From Chloroflexota bacterium (GTDB lineage: Bacteria; Chloroflexota; Dormibacteria; CF-121), in contig VBIS01000160.1 of NCBI GenBank assembly GCA_005880605.1, positions 10,180 to 74,179 of the forward strand: 64,000 nucleotides of DNA, given 5' to 3'. The notes under the pieces were generated by a model, which saw only the letters and a program-made list of their open reading frames with translations, ran no database searches and was not told the origin of the DNA. The position numbers and the translations under genes were made by a program. Of this stretch, positions 2,204 to 11,950 are shown in pieces (within the stretch, counting starts at the first letter, position 1; each line of letters begins with the position of its first letter).

Positions 2204-2831
2204 CACCTCCGGCGTCGACCAGGCGATGGTCGTGTTGGACGCGCGCCGGGTGCTGGCGGCCGAGGATTGGGTCCGGCGCCGCGACGACCAGCCGGTGCTG
2301 GCGCGCCTCGAGGCATTGGTCAAGCGAGCCGGCGGGGGGCCGGACGACCTGGAGGCGGTGGCCGCGGCGCGGGGCCCCGGCTCGTTCACCGGCCTGCGGG
2401 TCGGCCTCTCATTAGCGGCGGGCCTGGCCTATGCCCGGCATGTTCCGCTCCACCTCATCGACAGCCTGCCCATCCTGGCCCGCCGGGCGAATGGCGACCC
2501 GGCGATGGTCGCCCTGCGGGACGCCGGCCGTGCCGAGGTGTTCACCTGGCGTGAGGGCGAGCCCGTGCGGCGGATGCCGGTCGCTGAGCTCGCTGGCTGG
2601 CTCCCGAACTCGGCGCGGGTGATCGCCGAGCCAGCCGGGATGCTGGCGACCTGGTCACCGAGCCAGGCTCATCTCGAGATCCCGGAGGCCGACCGGCGGC
2701 GCCAGAGCGCCGCGCTTGCAGATTCCGCCATCTGGACCTTCGAGTCGCAAAAACCACTGCGATATGATGAAGTCCAGGCGCTCTACGTCCAGCCCGCGGC
2801 CGCGGAGGAGCGCGCCAGGAAGGCCCCATGA
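2187..2831 (+). CDS. tsaB: tRNA t6A37 biosynthesis protein TsaB (YeaZ).
   Basis: N-terminus MRLAIDTS and the GPGSFTGLRVG motif are present. An ATG at 2187 is preferred over the TTG at 2181. Confidence 0.75.
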   Translation: MRLAIDTSGVDQAMVVLDARRVLAAEDWVRRRDDQPVLARLEALVKRAGGGPDDLEAVAAARGPGSFTGLRVGLSLAAGLAYARHVPLHLIDSLPILARRANGDPAMVALRDAGRAEVFTWREGEPVRRMPVAELAGWLPNSARVIAEPAGMLATWSPSQAHLEIPEADRRRQSAALADSAIWTFESQKPLRYDEVQALYVQPAAAEERARKAP

Positions 2832-3370
2832 TGCAGCTGAAGTCCCGAGTCCTTGTCGATGCCATGCGCGAGGATGACATCCCGCAAGTGCAGGCGATCG
2901 AGCGCGAGATTTTTCCGACGCCCTGGCCGCGGAATGCCTACTACCGGGAGCTGCACCACAACCGGTCGGCGTACTACATGGTGCTGCGGCGCGACGAGGA
3001 CATCGTCGGCTACGCCGGGCTCTGGAAGATGAGCGACGAAGCGCACATCACGACGGTCGGGGTGCGCGCCAACCAACAGGGCAAGGGCTACGGCCATGCC
3101 TTGATGGCCGCGCTGATCCAGCGCGCCTATCAACTCGGCTCGCGCTGGCTGACGCTCGAGGTGCGGCCCTCCAACGAGGTCGCGGTTCGCCTTTACGAAA
3201 AGTTCGGCTTCAAGGTGATCGGCCGGCGGCGCGGCTATTACACCGACAACAATGAAGACGCGATCGTCATGTGGTCGGATTCGATCCAGTCGGCGACCTT
3301 CAAGAAGCGCTTCAAGGACATCATGCAGACGCTCGAGATCGAAGGGCTCGACAGCAGCACGCCGGAGTAG
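2828..3370 (+). CDS. rimI: Ribosomal-protein-alanine N-acetyltransferase RimI (GNAT).
   Basis: GNAT acetyl-CoA motif (VRANQQGKGYGHALM). The gene sits in the conserved tsaB-rimI-tsaD order. Confidence 0.7.
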   Translation: MMQLKSRVLVDAMREDDIPQVQAIEREIFPTPWPRNAYYRELHHNRSAYYMVLRRDEDIVGYAGLWKMSDEAHITTVGVRANQQGKGYGHALMAALIQRAYQLGSRWLTLEVRPSNEVAVRLYEKFGFKVIGRRRGYYTDNNEDAIVMWSDSIQSATFKKRFKDIMQTLEIEGLDSSTPE

Positions 3371-4431
3371 TCACCGACACCCGGCGCGTCCTGGCGATCG
3401 AGACATCCTGTGATGAAACCGCGGCGGCGGTGGTTGGCGATGGCCCACGCCTGCTCTCGAACGTCATCCGCTCGCAGGACGCGCTGCACGCCCCCTACGG
3501 CGGGGTCGTCCCGGAGCTGGCGGCCCGGGCCCACCTGCAGACGCTGGTCCCGGTCATCGAGCGTGCTCTCGAGGAAGCCGGAACTCGCTGGGAGCAGATC
3601 GATGCCGTGGGCGTCACGCGCGGGCCCGGGCTGATCGGCTGCCTGCTGGTCGGCGTCAACCTGGGGCAGGCGATCGCCTGGGCGCGCGGCCTCCCGGTCA
3701 TTGGCGTCAGCCACCTGGCGGCCCACGTCTATGCTGCGCTGCTCGAGGACGAGCAGCTCCGCCCGCCGGTGCTCGGGCTGGTCGTCTCCGGTGGCCACAG
3801 CGACCTCATCCGATGGCAGGCGAACGGCGAGATCGCCGTGATCGGCCGGACGCGCGACGACGCCGCGGGAGAAGCGTTCGACAAGGGCGCGCGCATTCTG
3901 GGCCTGCCCTTTCCCGGTGGCCCCGCGATCGACAAACTGGCGGCGAGCGGCGACCCGAAGGCCGTCGCATTCCCGCGCCCCCGGGCACCAGGACTGGACT
4001 TCAGCTTCAGCGGCGTCAAGACCGCCCTGCTGTACGAGGTGCGCAAACGCAAGACGATCAGTGAGCAGGAGCGGGCCGACCTGGCGGCCAGCTACCAGGA
4101 AGCGATTGTCGACGCCCTCCTGCAGCGGGTGGAGGCCGCCATATTCCCCTCCCCCTCGGGGCAGTTCCCTCCCCCGCTTGCGGGGGAGGGTAGGGTGGGG
4201 GCCGTGGGCTCTTGGCAGACCATCGTGATCGGCGGCGGCGTCGCGCGCAACCGCCGGCTCCGCGAGGTGGCCCAGGCGCGGCTTGGGCATCTCGCCCGCC
4301 TGATCATCCCGGCACCCGAGCTATGCACCGACAACGCGGCCATGATCGGCGTCGCCGCGCTCATCGAGTGGGACCGGCGAGGCCCGGACCCGGCGCCGTT
4401 CGACGCGGACCCGAGCCTTGGCTTCGGTTAG
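3271..4431 (+). CDS. tsaD: tRNA N6-adenosine threonylcarbamoyltransferase TsaD (Kae1/Gcp), carrying an in-frame ~20-aa insertion that derives from a G-rich repeat element.
   Basis: LAIETSCDET, HLAAH, GGVARN and CTDNAAMIG motifs are present. The homology-predicted N-terminus (RRVLAIETS, near 3382) has no canonical start codon. The only in-frame ATG is at 3271, which overlaps rimI by 100 nt. Confidence 0.85.
   Translation: MVGFDPVGDLQEALQGHHADARDRRARQQHAGVVTDTRRVLAIETSCDETAAAVVGDGPRLLSNVIRSQDALHAPYGGVVPELAARAHLQTLVPVIERALEEAGTRWEQIDAVGVTRGPGLIGCLLVGVNLGQAIAWARGLPVIGVSHLAAHVYAALLEDEQLRPPVLGLVVSGGHSDLIRWQANGEIAVIGRTRDDAAGEAFDKGARILGLPFPGGPAIDKLAASGDPKAVAFPRPRAPGLDFSFSGVKTALLYEVRKRKTISEQERADLAASYQEAIVDALLQRVEAAIFPSPSGQFPPPLAGEGRVGAVGSWQTIVIGGGVARNRRLREVAQARLGHLARLIIPAPELCTDNAAMIGVAALIEWDRRGPDPAPFDADPSLGFG
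4147..4201 (+). repeat. Copy A of a G-run/C-run hairpin repeat: CCCTCCCC...CCCTCCCCCGCTTGCGGGGGAGGGTAGGGTGGGGG.
   Basis: Inverted repeat CCCTCCCCCGC/GCGGGGGAGGG plus four G-runs (G5 A G3 TA G3 T G5) match a canonical G-quadruplex motif. Related copies are at 4891-4925 and 11905-11950. This copy lies inside the tsaD reading frame. Confidence 0.6.
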
Positions 4432-4855: not shown

Positions 4856-4882
4856 GAGCCAGCCTGCGGGCTGGCTTTTTTT
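4856..4882 (+). terminator. Rho-independent terminator of groES.
   Basis: A perfect 8-bp stem AGCCAGCC/GGCTGGCT with loop TGCG is followed by T7. Confidence 0.8.
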
Positions 4883-5426
4883 ATTCCGCCTCGCCGCCTG
4901 CGGGGGAGGGTCGGGTCGGGGCGTTGCCTTTCGCGCGCGGGATCATCGGCAGCGCCAGCATCGCCTCGTTCATCTCGGCGTACTGTTCCTGGCTGCGCCA
5001 GTCGTAGTGCGGATTGCGCCAGCGGACATACCCGCGGTAATCGATCAAGAACAGCGACCGGTGCGCCACGCCACGCTCTTCATTCAGGACGCCATATTTG
5101 CGCGAAACCGACTTGTCCCAGTCGGCCAGGATCGGGAACGGAAGATCGCCCAGGCTCTTCGCATACGCCTTGTGCGCCCAGATGTGGTCGACGCTGATAC
5201 CCAGCACCTGCGTCTCGGCTTTGACGAACTGCTCGTGATCACCCCGCAAGGAGGTGAGCTCATTGGTTCAACCGGGGCTGAAGTCGAAGACGTAGAACGC
5301 GAGCAGCACGTGTTTGCTGCCGCGGAATGATGCGAGGCTGACCTGGTCGCCGTCAGGCGTCCCTGGCAGGTTGAAGTCCGGCGCCTGGTCACCCACGCCA
5401 GGCATCGACGGCAGGGTGCTGGACAT
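4881..5426 (-). CDS. BCP/PrxQ-type peroxiredoxin with an in-frame TGA at the peroxidatic-cysteine position. Candidate selenocysteine-containing peroxiredoxin (181 aa, U53).
   Basis: The minus strand encodes [83 protein letters not shown]...[17 protein letters not shown]. The TGA (plus coordinates 5268-5270) replaces the Cys of the universal FYP.DF(T/S)PG-C-T motif. The flanking sequence is in frame and homologous to Bcp on both sides of the TGA. Confidence 0.6.
4891..4925 (+). repeat. Copy B of the G-rich hairpin/G4 repeat: CCGCCTGCGGGGGAGGGTCGGGTCGGGG.
   Basis: Shares the GCGGGGGAGGGT(A/C)GGGT(C/G)GGGG core with copies A and C. On the minus strand it encodes the C-terminal tail ([12 protein letters not shown]) of the peroxiredoxin. 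Confidence 0.55.
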
Positions 5427-5443: not shown

Positions 5444-6082
5444 GTGATTTTCCGCGACCGGCTCGACGCGGGCGAACGCCTGGCGGCAGCGCTCCAGCAG
5501 TACCGCGACGCGCCGGCGACCCTAGTGCTCGGCATCCCGCGCGGCGGCGTCGTCGTGGCGCGGGCGATTGCGGCTGCGCTGCATCTGCCGCTTGGCATCT
5601 GCCCGGTGCGCAAGCTCGGCGCCCCTGACAACCCGGAGCTGGCGATCGGCGCGGTCGACGACCAGGGCGTCACGGTCTTGGATCACAAGCTGAGCCGGCA
5701 CCTGGGCCTGACGGACGACGAACTGCTCGACGCCGCAGCGCGCCAGCGCGACGAACTGCGCGCCTGGTTGGCCGCGCTGGGGGCGAATGCCATCCCGCCG
5801 TTGCAGGGGCGGACGGCCATCCTTACCGACGACGGCGTCGCGACCGGCTACACCGCGCAGGCTGGCATCGAGTCGCTCCGCCGGCGGGGGGCGCAGCGGG
5901 TGGTGCTGGCGGTCCCGGTCGCACCACCCGATACGGCGGCCGTGCTGGCCGGACAGGTCGATGAGTTCGTCTGCCTCGTCACGCCGGAGCCGTTCTACGC
6001 GGTCGGCAACTTCTTCGAAGAGTGGCCACAGGTCACCGACGACGAGGTGCGAGCGCTGTTGCTGGCCGGTAACACGTTGTAG
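5444..6082 (+). CDS. Phosphoribosyltransferase-family protein (type I PRTase fold), function unknown.
   Basis: N-terminus [14 protein letters not shown] and a PRPP-binding-like [12 protein letters not shown] motif. The GTG start lies only 17 nt from the divergent peroxiredoxin ATG. Confidence 0.6.
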
Positions 6083-6132
6083 CGGAGGTTTTACACGGGC
6101 AAGGTCAGCCTCCCATCGCCGGTTACAGCGGT

Positions 6133-7608
6133 GTGAAGCTCTTCGCCAAGGGCAAGGTGGAGAAGGGCGGCCAGCAGCCAGCGGCGCCCGCGTTCAGCCC
6201 CATCAATCGATTCGGCCTGCTTGGCCTCCTCGACCAGGTGGTCAATGGTTCCCAGACGGGCGTGCTCGAGTTGCACGAGCCGCGAGGGAACTGGGTGTAT
6301 GCCTTCCAGGGCGGTGCCCTGACCCACGCCAGTGGCGGCCGGGTTCGCGGCGCTCGCCAGGCCTTCGATCTGCTCTGGGAATTCCAGAGCGGCGAGTGCA
6401 TGTTCGCCCCTGGACCCAACGCCAACCTGGCGGGCAACCTCTATATCGACAAGCCGCGCCTGCTCGACTTGCTGCGACGCAGCCAGGCCGCGCTGCAGGG
6501 TCCCTCGGCGCCCTACATCCCGCCCGATCAGCAGCGTCCGATCGCCCCGGCCACCTGGCAGCCGCCAACGGCTCCTCCCGCCTGGGGAGCGGCCGGCTAC
6601 CCGCCGCAGCCCGGTTATCCCCAGCCGCAGCAGCCGGGATATCCGCCGCAACCGCCGCCGCAGGGTTACCCCCAGGCGCCGCAACCGGGCTACGCCCCAC
6701 AGCAGCCCCAGGCGTACCCGCAGCCCCAGCCGCCACAGGGGTACCCCCAACCGCAGCAAGCGGGTTATCCCCCGCAGCAGCCGCCCCCGGGCTATCCGCC
6801 AGCCTCGTATCCGGGTGCCCTGCCGCAGGGTCAGCCCTACCCACAACCGCCTTATCCGCAGGCGCCCGGCGCGATGAGACCGCCGGCCGGGCAGCCCCAG
6901 CCCGCTTACCCGGCGTACCCGCAGCCGCAGGCGATGCCACCGCAGGCGATGCCACCGCAGCAGCCAATGGCGGCGCAGCCTCCGGTTGCGCCACCCGCTC
7001 CGGCCCGGCAGGTGACGCCCCCCAGCTTTTCGGTCCCACCGATGGCGATTCCCCGGAAGCGCGAGGCAGCACCGCTGCCGGCCTACCAGCCACCGGCCGC
7101 CCCGGCGCCCGCCCCGGAGCCGGCCAAGCTTGCCGCGCCGAAGGACGACCTTGCCGCGCTGCGCGCCAGCCTGGTCGGGCAGGCGCCGCCGGTCGCGCAG
7201 GCTGCGAGCGCGCCGGCGTGGGGGCTCCGCGGCGGCGAACCTGTGGCCCCAGCGGTCGTTCCCGGACGAAAGGGCAAGGACAAGGTCAAGCACAAGGACA
7301 AGGTCAAGGGCGCCAAGGCCCCCGTTGTCCAGGGAAAGGCGGCGCCGAAGCCCGACTCCAAGCTCAAGGCCAGCATCAAGATCCGATTGATCAAATTCCT
7401 GCTATGGGCTTGCGAGCGCCGCTACTCGCCGGACGACCACTGGACGTTGAAAGATGCCTTCGAGATTTCGACGATGGAGCTTCGTGATCAGTTCATCGGC
7501 GCCTTCTCGGAGTCATTGAAGTCAACCAAGAAAACTCGCGAGGACAATTTCGACGACACCGACGACATGGCCGCGGGCCGCATGCGCGGCCGTGGCCGCC
7601 GCCACTAA
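6133..7608 (+). CDS. DUF4388-domain protein with a ~130-aa Pro/Gln/Tyr-rich low-complexity linker and a conserved charged C-terminal region.
   Basis: The N-terminus (LLGLLDQVVNGSQTGVLEL...WVYAFQGGALTHA...AFDLLWEFQSGECMF) matches the DUF4388 pattern. It is followed by degenerate GYPQPQ-type repeats and a KDKVKHKDKVK segment. Confidence 0.6.
   Translation: MKLFAKGKVEKGGQQPAAPAFSPINRFGLLGLLDQVVNGSQTGVLELHEPRGNWVYAFQGGALTHASGGRVRGARQAFDLLWEFQSGECMFAPGPNANLAGNLYIDKPRLLDLLRRSQAALQGPSAPYIPPDQQRPIAPATWQPPTAPPAWGAAGYPPQPGYPQPQQPGYPPQPPPQGYPQAPQPGYAPQQPQAYPQPQPPQGYPQPQQAGYPPQQPPPGYPPASYPGALPQGQPYPQPPYPQAPGAMRPPAGQPQPAYPAYPQPQAMPPQAMPPQQPMAAQPPVAPPAPARQVTPPSFSVPPMAIPRKREAAPLPAYQPPAAPAPAPEPAKLAAPKDDLAALRASLVGQAPPVAQAASAPAWGLRGGEPVAPAVVPGRKGKDKVKHKDKVKGAKAPVVQGKAAPKPDSKLKASIKIRLIKFLLWACERRYSPDDHWTLKDAFEISTMELRDQFIGAFSESLKSTKKTREDNFDDTDDMAAGRMRGRGRRH
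6580..6990 (+). repeat. Degenerate tandem coding repeats (GYPPQP / PQPQ units) within the DUF4388 gene.
   Basis: Reiterated ggntayccnccncagccg-type units at the DNA level encode PQ-rich low-complexity protein. Confidence 0.6.
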
Positions 7609-11879: not shown

Positions 11880-11904
11880 ACTGCCCACCACCGAAGGCCA
11901 TTTT

Positions 11905-11950
11905 CCCTTCCCCCTCCGGGGGAGGGCCGGGTGGGGGGCCGGTGGGGGCT
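11905..11950 (+). repeat. Copy C of the G-rich hairpin/G4 repeat: CCCTTCCCCCTCCGGGGGAGGGCCGGGTGGGGGGCCGGTGGGGG.
   Basis: Inverted repeat CCCCTCC/GGAGGGG plus five G-runs. It is intergenic, immediately downstream of ligA. Confidence 0.55.

What the first reader, a model, noticed from the sequence alone, without database searches (positions are those of the whole stretch)
4147..4201. G-quadruplex/hairpin repeat element inserted in-frame inside the essential tsaD gene
- TsaD carries an extra ~20 aa ([26 protein letters not shown]) between the conserved EAIVDALL and IVIGGGVARN blocks. Other TsaD/Kae1 proteins have only a few residues there.
- The inserted DNA is CCCTCCCC...CCCTCCCCCGCTTGCGGGGGAGGGTAGGGTGGGGG. 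This is a C-run/G-run inverted repeat whose G-strand is a textbook G4 motif (G5 A G3 TA G3 T G5).
- Near-identical elements recur at 4891-4925 and 11905-11950.
- A structured mobile-like repeat tolerated in-frame in an essential t6A enzyme is unusual.
Basis: seen in the sequence. Interest (0 to 1): 0.65.

Follow-up and report, generated by a model that had tools for sequence, protein, structure and literature searches.

The report
Triplex/G4 hairpin repeat inside tsaD
A 40-base G/C-rich repeat of a kind already known from E. coli intergenic DNA (BoxC / intrastrand-triplex motif) sits in frame inside the tRNA-modification gene tsaD of a soil Chloroflexi bacterium, adds a floppy 19-residue loop to the enzyme, and is the fastest-changing spot between near-identical strains.

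Summary
TsaD carries 19 extra residues, coded by 4141-4218. The spacing there is 32-33 residues in 78 distant TsaDs and 51 here. Among 120 close homologues, 63 have the short loop and 57 carry 50 different inserts.

The DNA core (4167-4201) is CCCTCCCCC-GCTTGC-GGGGGAGGG-TA-GGGTGGGGG. This is a hairpin followed by a G-block that mirrors the hairpin's G-arm. That three-block layout defines the published BoxC / PIT / TMECO class of intrastrand-triplex motifs (Holder 2015), which others have read as a G4-hairpin switch (Kaplan 2016). The same bases also fit a G4 motif.

Two more copies lie at 4885-4928 and 11900-11949. The exact G-block pattern occurs across many phyla, and at least 10 of 129 copies sit in frame in Pfam-verified genes.

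A sister assembly is 99.6% identical over 11.9 kb. There, 42 of 50 mismatches and all five real indels fall at the two intact elements.

My reading is a tolerated, unstable passenger repeat translated as a disordered surface loop. How it spreads is unknown. It is a new variant of a known kind, and of moderate interest.

The parts
3388..4431 (+). tsaD coding region. It runs from the conserved N-terminus VLAIETSCDET to the stop codon. The true start codon is uncertain.
   Evidence: ORF 3271..4431. PDB TsaD hits reach E 1e-77. Homologues carry PF00814. Relatives show tsaE-tsaB-rimI-tsaD synteny.
4141..4218 (+). Variable segment of tsaD: 26 codons, [26 protein letters not shown]. It replaces the 7 codons QAADPAP of empty alleles, a net gain of 19 residues.
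   Evidence: DNA and protein alignment with empty alleles L001, L203 and L207 and with filled alleles. Loop length is invariant in 78 distant TsaDs.
4143..4155 (+). Extra partial left end, ATTCCCCTCCCCC. This is a second C-arm copy, upstream of the complete motif.
   Evidence: Read from the sequence. The same ATTC-CCCTCCCCC left end is seen in L200, L201 and L202 elements.
4167..4175 (+). C-arm CCCTCCCCC.
   Evidence: It forms a perfect hairpin with 4182-4190. Including the closing G-C pair, this is a 10-bp stem with a 4-nt loop.
4176..4181 (+). Loop 1, GCTTGC.
   Evidence: Loop 1 lengths of 3-8 nt (mode 5) in 96 copies across phyla.
4182..4190 (+). G-arm 1, GGGGGAGGG. It is the Watson-Crick partner of the C-arm.
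4193..4201 (+). G-arm 2, GGGTGGGGG. It is the exact mirror of G-arm 1 with T opposite A, which would allow 9 reverse-Hoogsteen triads. Together with G-arm 1 it also forms the motif G5-A-G3-TA-G3-T-G5.
   Evidence: Read from the sequence. G4 regex hit. The architecture is defined in PMC4666352.
4885..4928 (+). Copy 2, a 44-bp insertion with a decayed C-arm. It lies after the groES terminator and supplies the last codons (about 15) and the stop codon of the minus-strand peroxiredoxin gene.
   Evidence: Clean presence/absence against L201 and L202; the alignment against L203 is less clean. Translation of 4881-5420 on the minus strand ends ...[19 protein letters not shown].
11900..11949 (+). Copy 3, about 20 nt after the ligA stop codon. 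It has a bulged C-arm, G-arm 1, G-arm 2 and an extra GGTGGGGG.
   Evidence: At the same site L200 and L201 carry a different variant, L203 has none, and L206 has the reverse orientation.

Best explanation
**What it is.** The extra TsaD segment is a copy, with an extra half-copy of the left arm, of a short (about 40 nt) dispersed G/C-rich repeat. The repeat has three blocks: a C-arm, a complementary G-arm, and a mirror G-arm. This places it in the same structural class as the E. coli BoxC / PIT / TMECO intrastrand-triplex motifs.

**How it is tolerated.** It lies in the codons for the junction between a long helix and the following beta-strand (GGGVARN) of TsaD. It is read through in a frame without stop codons and gives a Pro/Gly-rich, probably disordered, surface loop. 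The enzyme tolerates this loop, so the element behaves as a passenger rather than a functional domain.

**Why it varies.** As single-stranded DNA the element can fold into a hairpin, a triplex or a G4. As mRNA it can fold into a hairpin or a G4. I infer that such folding during replication or repair makes the site prone to slippage, small deletions or duplications, and recombination patches. In a gene under purifying selection only in-frame variants survive, which gives the observed swarm of length alleles.

**Shown:** the insertion, repeat-family membership, the architecture, the in-frame translation, presence/absence among relatives, and the concentration of strain differences at the elements.

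**Inferred:** loop disorder and neutrality, a non-B-DNA cause for the instability, and how copies arise at new sites (unknown).
For: - **Architecture.** The motif has 9/9 Watson-Crick pairs plus a 9/9 mirror block. It matches the class II motif definition of Holder et al.: 9-nt stems and loops of 1-6 nt.
- **Triad change across families.** Compared with the published TMECO consensus (CCCTCTCCC / GGGAGAGGG / GGGTGAGGG), this family (CCCTCCCCC / GGGGGAGGG / GGGTGGGGG) changes one whole triad, from T:A*A to C:G*G, so all three blocks stay matched. This rests on comparing two consensus sequences.
- **Repeat family.** There are 3 copies in the window against 0.02 expected.
- **Insertion.** The loop length is fixed in 78 distant TsaDs. 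Close relatives have empty alleles. L204 has a clean 39-nt insertion that keeps QAA...PAPT. Copy 2 is a clean 44-bp insertion.
- **Instability.** The 120 homologues split into 63 empty and 57 filled, with 50 distinct inserts adding 5 to 40 residues, some tandem, in at least two reading frames of the same DNA. Filled and empty alleles interleave on the TsaD tree.
- **Sister assembly.** WIN and L200 are 99.6% identical over 11.9 kb. Of 50 mismatches, 42 fall in the two 500-bp bins that hold the intact elements, and all 5 real indels fall there. The decayed copy 2 is identical in both.
- **Second gene.** L201 and L202 have identical TsaD but differ by a hairpin-sized deletion in another in-frame copy.
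- **Tolerated loop.** The insert is coil with pLDDT below 50, between helix 226-252 and strand 278-283. It corresponds to a gap in the PDB alignment.
- **Coding placement is general.** Copies lie in frame within GlnE, xanthine dehydrogenase, the E2 acyltransferase linker, PrmC, HrpA, Mfd (twice), PurL, a GH3 glycosidase and a TIR-AAA protein.
Against: - No structure formation was measured. For TMECO, neither double-stranded DNA nor in vivo DMS footprinting showed a triplex.
- This variant has longer G-runs than TMECO, so G4 may win over triplex. ViennaRNA favours an RNA G4 (-31.9) over the hairpin (-24.2 kcal/mol), using a rough energy model.
- The AF2 model is poor overall (mean pLDDT 60), so calling the loop disordered is soft.
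- All comparison sequences are metagenome assemblies. Repeats are places where assemblers switch strains, so some differences between WIN and L200 may be strain mosaics rather than in situ mutation. The differences near ligA extend about 30 nt into the gene, which looks like a recombination patch.
- Neutrality is assumed. A role for the loop or for the mRNA structure is not excluded.
- The origin of new copies is unexplained.
Confidence: 0.72

Rival explanations
1. The element is an active non-autonomous mobile cassette, REP/REPIN-like or MITE-like. An enzyme encoded elsewhere inserts it in either orientation. It repeatedly colonises the same permissive sites, including coding loops.
For: - The boundaries are discrete and recurrent: 5'-ATT(T)C-CCCTCCCCC ... 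GGGTGGGGGC-3'.
- There are clean filled-versus-empty comparisons of 39 and 44 bp.
- Three sites carry the element in opposite orientations in different lineages: tsaD (L206 against the others), the ACPS-NnrD linker (L203 against L200 and L202), and the region downstream of ligA (L206 against WIN, L200 and L201).
- Filled and empty alleles interleave on the tree.
- Each lineage has its own sub-consensus for loops and flanks.
- Across 95 copies, positions -3 to -1 are A/T-rich and +1/+2 lean towards T then G.
Against: - There are no terminal inverted repeats beyond the hairpin itself, no target-site duplication, and no conserved target sequence on the left flank.
- I did not look for a transposase in the window, and none is linked to BoxC/TMECO in the papers I read.
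- Opposite orientations could also come from alternative decay of one symmetric full palindrome. Such four-block copies exist in 11 of 129 cases.
- Allele exchange by homologous recombination could also produce the interleaving.
Confidence: 0.25
2. The insert is a selected, functional feature. Either it is a lineage-specific TsaD loop (a partner or tRNA contact), or it is a cis-acting DNA or RNA structure, for example a G4 or hairpin that paces translation, stabilises the mRNA, or promotes programmed recombination as the pilE G4 does in Neisseria.
For: - The reading frame is kept in all 57 filled alleles.
- The G-rich strand is the sense strand in most tsaD alleles, so the mRNA carries the hairpin/G4.
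- The G-block G3-N-G3-NN-G3-N-G3 resembles the pilE G4. This resemblance is from my own knowledge and was not tested.
Against: - Half of the close relatives lack it entirely.
- The peptide is not conserved: 50 variants, two frames, reversed in L206.
- The same DNA occurs in intergenic positions and in unrelated genes.
- PIT elements showed no promoter or terminator activity in E. coli (Hoyne and Maher 2002, as cited).
- In-frame survival is simply what purifying selection on tsaD would leave.
Confidence: 0.08
3. The insert is an assembly or sequencing artefact, for example a chimeric join through a genomic repeat or errors in a G-rich hairpin.
For: - All data are metagenome assemblies.
- P0013 carries the empty and the filled loop in tandem, which looks like a chimera of two alleles.
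- G-rich hairpins are error-prone for short-read sequencing (my own knowledge).
Against: - Dozens of independent assemblies from JGI, ENA and NCBI place in-frame elements at the same codon position with intact flanks.
- The lengths differ by multiples of three. Random errors or misjoins would not keep the frame.
Confidence: 0.03

Closest known systems
BoxC / PIT elements / TMECO intrastrand-triplex motifs of E. coli and other Proteobacteria (Bachellier 1990s; Hoyne and Maher 2000, 2002; Holder et al. 2015, PMC4666352)
   Same: - The three-block layout is the same: a 9-nt C-arm, a 3-6 nt loop, a complementary 9-nt G-arm, a short loop, and a mirror 9-nt G-arm.
- Both are dispersed in multiple copies and sometimes form full palindromes.
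- Both associate with local sequence change between strains, including deletions of hairpin size.
   Different: - The sequence variant has a single A (GGGGGAGGG / GGGTGGGGG) rather than GGGAGAGGG / GGGTGAGGG, and loop 2 is 2 nt rather than 3. It fails the literal TMECO pattern.
- The host is Chloroflexi, and the exact motif is spread over many phyla, not only Proteobacteria.
- The literature I read describes the E. coli copies as intergenic. Here copies are translated in frame inside conserved genes.
G-quadruplex-hairpin-duplex switch (HPG1/HPG2) of E. coli (Kaplan et al. 2016, PMC5100583)
   Same: The same class of sequence is read as four G-tracts with short loops, preceded by a complementary C-tract, so that the hairpin and the G4 compete.
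   Different: - Those copies are intergenic.
- That paper set aside G4 candidates in protein-coding regions.
- Here the G-tracts are longer (G5), and the element is coding.
Rickettsia palindromic elements (RPE) and the Coxiella MITEs that insert in frame in protein genes (PMC1779305, PMC5896051, PMC2229807)
   Same: They are selfish-looking palindromic repeats found in frame inside conserved, even essential, protein genes. They are translated as extra surface segments, and presence/absence varies among relatives.
   Different: - RPEs and MITEs are about 100-150 bp or more, and are not G/C triplex motifs.
- MITEs typically have terminal inverted repeats and target-site duplications.
- This element is about 40 nt with neither feature.
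- Its peptide is hypervariable rather than family-conserved.
REP / REPIN elements mobilised by RAYT (Y1) transposases
   Same: They are short (20-40 nt) extragenic palindromes, present in many copies, without target-site duplications, and often located just after stop codons, as copies 2 and 3 are.
   Different: - There is no conserved GTAG-type head.
- This element has a third mirror block.
- No RAYT is known or was found.
- Occurrence inside coding sequence.

Membership tests
Class II G/C-rich intrastrand-triplex motif (ITxF definition; BoxC/PIT/TMECO class) | Three consecutive blocks on one strand: a pyrimidine arm, a complementary purine arm, and a second purine arm that mirrors the first (G*G:C, and T or A opposite A:T). 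Stems are 6-15 nt with at most 1 mismatch. | tested here: met
   In copy 1, CCCTCCCCC / GGGGGAGGG / GGGTGGGGG gives 9/9 pairs and a 9/9 mirror. Copy 3 has one bulge. Copy 2 has a decayed C-arm.
Class II G/C-rich intrastrand-triplex motif (ITxF definition; BoxC/PIT/TMECO class) | Loops of 1-6 nt. | tested here: met
   Loop 1 is GCTTGC (6 nt, or 4 nt if the closing G-C pair forms). Loop 2 is TA (2 nt).
Class II G/C-rich intrastrand-triplex motif (ITxF definition; BoxC/PIT/TMECO class) | More copies than chance would give, dispersed in the genome. | tested here: met
   There are 3 copies in 64 kb against 0.02 expected. Further copies occur in syntenic relatives. The pattern is spread across many phyla. 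A whole-genome count was not possible.
Class II G/C-rich intrastrand-triplex motif (ITxF definition; BoxC/PIT/TMECO class) | Associated with raised local variability between closely related strains. | tested here: met
   Between WIN and L200, 42 of 50 mismatches and all 5 real indels in about 14 kb fall at the two intact elements.
Class II G/C-rich intrastrand-triplex motif (ITxF definition; BoxC/PIT/TMECO class) | The single strand folds into a triplex in vitro (CD, NMR). | not testable with these tools
   Only a hairpin and a G4 could be modelled. Triplex energetics are not available in the tools.
TMECO sensu stricto (pattern CCCTCNCCC N3-6 GGGNGAGGG N3 GGGNGAGGG) | A literal match to the published pattern. 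| tested here: not met
   The C-arm and G-arm 1 fit. G-arm 2 is GGGTGGGGG, with G where the pattern has A, and loop 2 is 2 nt rather than 3.
TMECO sensu stricto (pattern CCCTCNCCC N3-6 GGGNGAGGG N3 GGGNGAGGG) | Intergenic location (as the literature describes the E. coli copies). | tested here: not met
   Copy 1 is inside tsaD. Copy 2 supplies the 3' end of the peroxiredoxin coding sequence.
Canonical G-quadruplex motif | Four tracts of at least 3 G separated by loops of 1-7 nt. | tested here: met
   The motif is G5-A-G3-TA-G3-T-G5. The only G4-regex hits on the + strand of the window are the three elements.
Canonical G-quadruplex motif | Actual G4 folding in DNA or RNA. | not testable with these tools
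   ViennaRNA's G4 model favours an RNA G4 (-31.9 against -24.2 kcal/mol for the hairpin), but this is only a prediction. For the related TMECO, NMR showed a triplex and not a G4.
MITE / RPE-type in-frame selfish element | Terminal inverted repeats and target-site duplication. | tested here: not met
   The filled-versus-empty junctions at tsaD (L204) and at copy 2 show no duplication. The only inverted repeat is the internal hairpin.
MITE / RPE-type in-frame selfish element | In-frame presence inside conserved protein genes, with presence/absence among relatives. | tested here: met
REP/REPIN-RAYT system | A conserved 5' tetranucleotide head (GTAG-like) next to the palindrome, and a cognate RAYT gene. 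| tested here: inconclusive
   The left end in this lineage is ATT(T)C, not GTAG. Across phyla there is only an A/T-rich bias at positions -3 to -1. No search for a RAYT gene was possible without whole genomes.

The most novel reading that the evidence does not exclude
These G/C-rich triplex/G4 cassettes could be an active insertion system that works in either orientation and is spread across bacterial phyla. The mobilising machinery, or a structure-directed repair pathway, would be unidentified. It would repeatedly seed the same permissive sites, including loops and linkers of housekeeping enzymes (TsaD, Mfd, GlnE, PurL, HrpA, PrmC). After insertion the cassettes would act as built-in generators of loop-length variation in proteins.
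Probability: 0.2. Interest if true: 0.75.

Novelty: new variant of a known kind. Interest (0 to 1): 0.5.

Why it matters
BoxC/PIT/TMECO-type motifs have been known for about 30 years. In the papers I read they have no accepted function or origin, and the E. coli copies are treated as intergenic.

This locus gives a clean natural experiment.
- The same motif is read through in frame in a conserved tRNA-modification enzyme, with empty, filled, tandem and reversed alleles among close relatives.
- Nearly all sequence divergence between two 99.6%-identical assemblies is concentrated on the intact copies.

Two things follow.
- The claimed link between intrastrand-triplex or G4 motifs and local genome instability becomes directly testable, because an in-frame reporter is already provided by nature.
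- Such motifs are a recurrent source of Pro/Gly-rich loop insertions in bacterial housekeeping proteins. This matters for gene annotation, for alignment-based phylogenomics, and for interpreting odd 'PSPxxGEGxG' segments in proteins.

Tried and rejected
- **Rfam.** Both the gathering and the permissive search found nothing at the elements, only sub-threshold noise.
- **Plain hairpin energy.** For copies 2 and 3 it is no better than shuffles, and for copy 1 it is marginal. 'Stable hairpin' alone does not define the family.
- **Metagenome scan with the TsaD protein.** The other 78 loci served only as a loop-length control.
- **Coding versus intergenic test on the cross-phylum hits.** In high-GC DNA, 60 of 129 elements are 'spanned' by long ORFs. 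I kept only those with a coding-like GC3 pattern and Pfam domains around the element. I rejected L139, L172 and L163, where the element lies upstream of the first domain and is probably in the 5' UTR. I also rejected L144, L125, L146 and L083, which have no Pfam match.
- **AlphaFold2.** With 45 close homologues the model is weak (pLDDT 60). I used it only for secondary-structure placement and ran no fold search.
- **P0093, the triple-tandem allele.** No DNA was available.
- **Literature searches.** Raw sequence strings mostly returned eukaryotic promoter or primer hits. GGGAGAGGG combined with repeat, intergenic and hairpin found the two key papers.
- **RimI-TsaD fusion.** I considered and dropped this reading of the 536-aa homologues. 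Their N-terminal part looks like an out-of-frame read across rimI.
Full report
**1.

The window encodes tsaB (2181-2831), rimI (2828-3370) and tsaD (conserved part 3388-4431) on the + strand, followed by groES. Relatives show the operon tsaE-tsaB-rimI-tsaD. The protein matches solved TsaD structures of E. coli and Salmonella at E about 1e-77.

Between the blocks EAIVDALLQRVEAA and TIVIGGGVARN the window has [26 protein letters not shown]. The PDB alignments leave an 18-19 residue gap exactly there.

In 78 TsaDs of 40-54% identity fetched from metagenomes, the anchor-to-anchor stretch is 32 residues (33 in three of them). In the window it is 51. Close relatives at 80-89% identity have the short form EAAQAADPAPTIVLGGG. 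The segment that differs is 4141-4218, which is 26 codons in place of 7.

**2. The DNA is a repeat**

Shuffles give 0.02 expected, and the repeat finder groups the three as one family. A G4 regular expression finds only these three sites on the + strand of the 64 kb. Rfam has nothing there.

**3. Anatomy**

- Copy 1 is CCCTCCCCC (4167-4175), GCTTGC, GGGGGAGGG (4182-4190), TA, GGGTGGGGG (4193-4201).
- The first two blocks form a perfect hairpin.
- The third block is the exact mirror image of the second, with T where the second has A.
- An extra half-copy of the left end, ATTCCCCTCCCCC, lies at 4143-4155.
- Copy 3 (11900-11949) has the same three blocks with one bulge and an extra G-block.
- Copy 2 (4885-4928) keeps both G-blocks but has a decayed C-arm.

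**4. This architecture is already described**

Searching the literature with the related string GGGAGAGGG led to Holder et al. 2015 (PMC4666352).
- The E. coli BoxC repeats were re-described as PIT elements by Hoyne and Maher, and named TMECO by Holder et al.
- The pattern is 5'-CCCTCNCCC N3-6 GGGNGAGGG N3 GGGNGAGGG-3', a class II purine-motif intrastrand triplex.
- Holder et al. found 3610 copies in 262 proteobacterial genomes.
- By CD and NMR, the single-stranded oligos form a triplex and not a G4.
- No triplex was detected in duplex DNA or in vivo.
- No promoter or terminator activity was found.
- The loci vary more between E. coli strains than control loci do.

Kaplan et al. 2016 (PMC5100583) read the same E. 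coli sequences as a G-quadruplex-hairpin-duplex switch.

The window's element meets the structural definition: 9-nt stems, loops of 6 and 2 nt, and a mirror third block. It fails the literal TMECO pattern because it carries one A rather than two.

Comparing the two families, one whole triad has changed together, from T:A*A to C:G*G, so all three blocks stay matched. I take this as an argument that the three-block relation itself is maintained, not just a hairpin or just G-tracts. It is an inference from two consensus sequences.

**5. Distribution**

It returned 119 stretches from Alpha- and Betaproteobacteria, Planctomycetota, Chloroflexi, Nitrospirae, Acidobacteria, Gemmatimonadota, Bacteroidota, Spirochaetes and others.

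The pattern did not require a C-arm. Even so, 96 of the 129 copies have CCCTCCCCC (at most 1 mismatch) 3-8 nt upstream, and 11 are full four-block palindromes.

**6. Coding placement is not unique to tsaD**

Among those 129 copies I kept ORFs with coding-like GC3 and checked them against Pfam. I counted at least ten as in frame inside real genes, most with a domain on both sides of the element or spanning it:
- GlnE
- a xanthine-dehydrogenase hammerhead domain
- the lipoyl-E3BD linker of an E2 acyltransferase
- PrmC
- HrpA
- Mfd (twice)
- PurL
- a GH3 glycosidase
- a TIR-AAA protein
- probably also the tail of a DEAD-box helicase

In the window's own lineage, the linker of an ACPS-NnrD fusion protein also carries the element.

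Copy 2 of the window is a clean 44-bp insertion relative to L201 and L202. It rewrites the C-terminal tail and the stop codon of the minus-strand peroxiredoxin gene.

**7. Dynamics**

- Of the 120 best TsaD homologues (77-100% identity), 63 have the empty loop and 57 carry inserts of 5 to 40 extra residues. There are 50 distinct insert sequences, some tandem.
- At least two reading frames of the same DNA are used: FPSPARGGGSGWGP and [13 protein letters not shown].
- On a neighbour-joining tree built without the loop, filled and empty alleles interleave.
- L204 shows a clean 39-nt insertion that keeps QAA...PAPT.
- In L206 the tsaD element and the ligA-downstream element are in the opposite orientation. 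In L203 the ACPS-NnrD element is also reversed.
- L200, a contig assembled from another sample, is 99.6% identical to the window over 11.9 kb. Of 50 mismatches, 14 fall in the 500-bp bin holding the tsaD element and 28 in the bin holding the ligA-downstream element. All five real indels (12, 1, 7, 23 and 11 nt) are at these two elements.
- The decayed copy 2 is identical in both. In tsaD the indels sum to 18 nt, so the frame is kept.
- L201 and L202 encode identical TsaD but differ by a hairpin-sized deletion in the ACPS-NnrD copy.

**8. Where the loop sits**

The AlphaFold2 model is of modest quality (mean pLDDT 60, from 45 close homologues). It places the insert as coil (253-277, pLDDT below 50) between helix 226-252 and strand 278-283. 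This agrees with the PDB alignment. I use it only to say that the insert lies at a helix-strand junction and is probably disordered.

**9. Interpretation**

The best-supported reading is a tolerated passenger. A BoxC/PIT/TMECO-class repeat was inserted in a permissive loop of tsaD and is translated as a Pro/Gly-rich coil. It is kept in frame by purifying selection on the host gene. It changes fast because the DNA is prone to slippage, small deletions or duplications, and recombination.

The link to non-B DNA is inferred from the literature and from the contrast between intact and decayed copies. It was not measured here.

As RNA, a purine-motif triplex is not expected (cited). ViennaRNA's rough G4 model favours a G4 (-31.9) over the hairpin (-24.2 kcal/mol).

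**10. Rivals**

- **Mobile cassette.** It is supported by sharp recurrent ends (ATT(T)C...GGGGGC), clean filled/empty pairs and both orientations at three sites. It lacks terminal repeats, target duplications and any enzyme. Opposite orientations can also arise from alternative decay of a symmetric four-block palindrome.
- **Selected function of the loop or structure.** This is unlikely, given absence in half of the close relatives, the unconserved peptide, and the same DNA in unrelated contexts.
- **Artefact.** This is very unlikely, given many independent in-frame assemblies. P0013 does look like a chimera of two alleles.

**11. Verdict**

- Novelty is a new variant of a known kind: a different sequence variant, a different phylum, and a coding context.
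- Interest is moderate at 0.5. The in-frame, hypervariable, multi-allelic locus is a good natural test-bed for the instability claimed for triplex/G4 motifs. In-frame copies in several housekeeping genes across phyla are not reported in the papers I read.

Noticed in passing
window 4881-5405 (minus strand); TGA at 5268-5270: The AhpC/TSA-type peroxiredoxin gene has an in-frame TGA exactly at the peroxidatic cysteine position (…[16 protein letters not shown]…). Gene callers split the gene at a similar position (about 110 + about 50 aa) in L200, L202, L203, L205 and L206. It is probably a selenocysteine peroxiredoxin. A small hairpin lies 13 nt downstream of the TGA.
   Followed up: partly
window 3271-3431: tsaD has no canonical start codon between the rimI stop (TAG, 3368-3370) and its conserved N-terminus VLAIETSCDET (from 3388). 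The only upstream ATG/GTG/TTG in frame is GTG 3271, which overlaps rimI by 100 nt. Gene callers chose GTG 3431 instead and cut off the ASKHA motif (P0001 starts VVGDG...). The real start may be CTG 3391 or depend on translational coupling.
   Followed up: partly
P0013 (metagenome protein, 351 aa): One TsaD homologue carries the empty and the filled version of the loop in tandem (…[59 protein letters not shown]). It is most likely an assembly chimera of two alleles present in one sample, which would imply polymorphism within the population.
   Followed up: no
L200 1082-1115 (+); L202 3386-3419 (+); L203 3562-3592 (-); L201 gene 1-1110: The same element sits in frame in the linker of an ACPS-NnrD (holo-ACP synthase / carbohydrate-kinase) fusion protein, just upstream of the window's region. 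It is in opposite orientation in L203. L201 has a hairpin-sized deletion relative to L202, although the two have identical TsaD.
   Followed up: yes
L087, L094, L096, L102, L103, L136, L152, L165, L178, L181, L184: Copies of the exact G-block motif from distant phyla lie in frame inside GlnE, xanthine dehydrogenase, an E2 acyltransferase linker, PrmC, PurL, HrpA, Mfd (two unrelated genomes), a TIR-AAA protein, a DEAD-box helicase tail and a GH3 glycosidase.
   Followed up: partly
L139 and L172 (upstream of uvrB); L152 and L165 (mfd); L136 (hrpA); window 11900-11949 (after ligA): Several of the verified copies are in or next to DNA-repair or helicase genes: uvrB twice, mfd twice, hrpA and ligA. 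This may be chance in a small sample. I did not test it statistically.
   Followed up: no
L142 2941-3700: A Clostridia MAG contig holds four copies of the G-block at a spacing of 225-290 bp. Each is followed by the same GTGCAAGACC(T/C)GCCCCCTTTCCAAGGGGGC. This looks like a tandem array of a longer composite repeat.
   Followed up: no
window 6500-6920 (minus-strand G4 hits); ORF 5787-7487 region: The three G4-regex hits on the minus strand fall in a stretch whose + strand carries many C5 runs in repetitive CCGCAGC-type sequence. They are unrelated to the triplex element.
   Followed up: no
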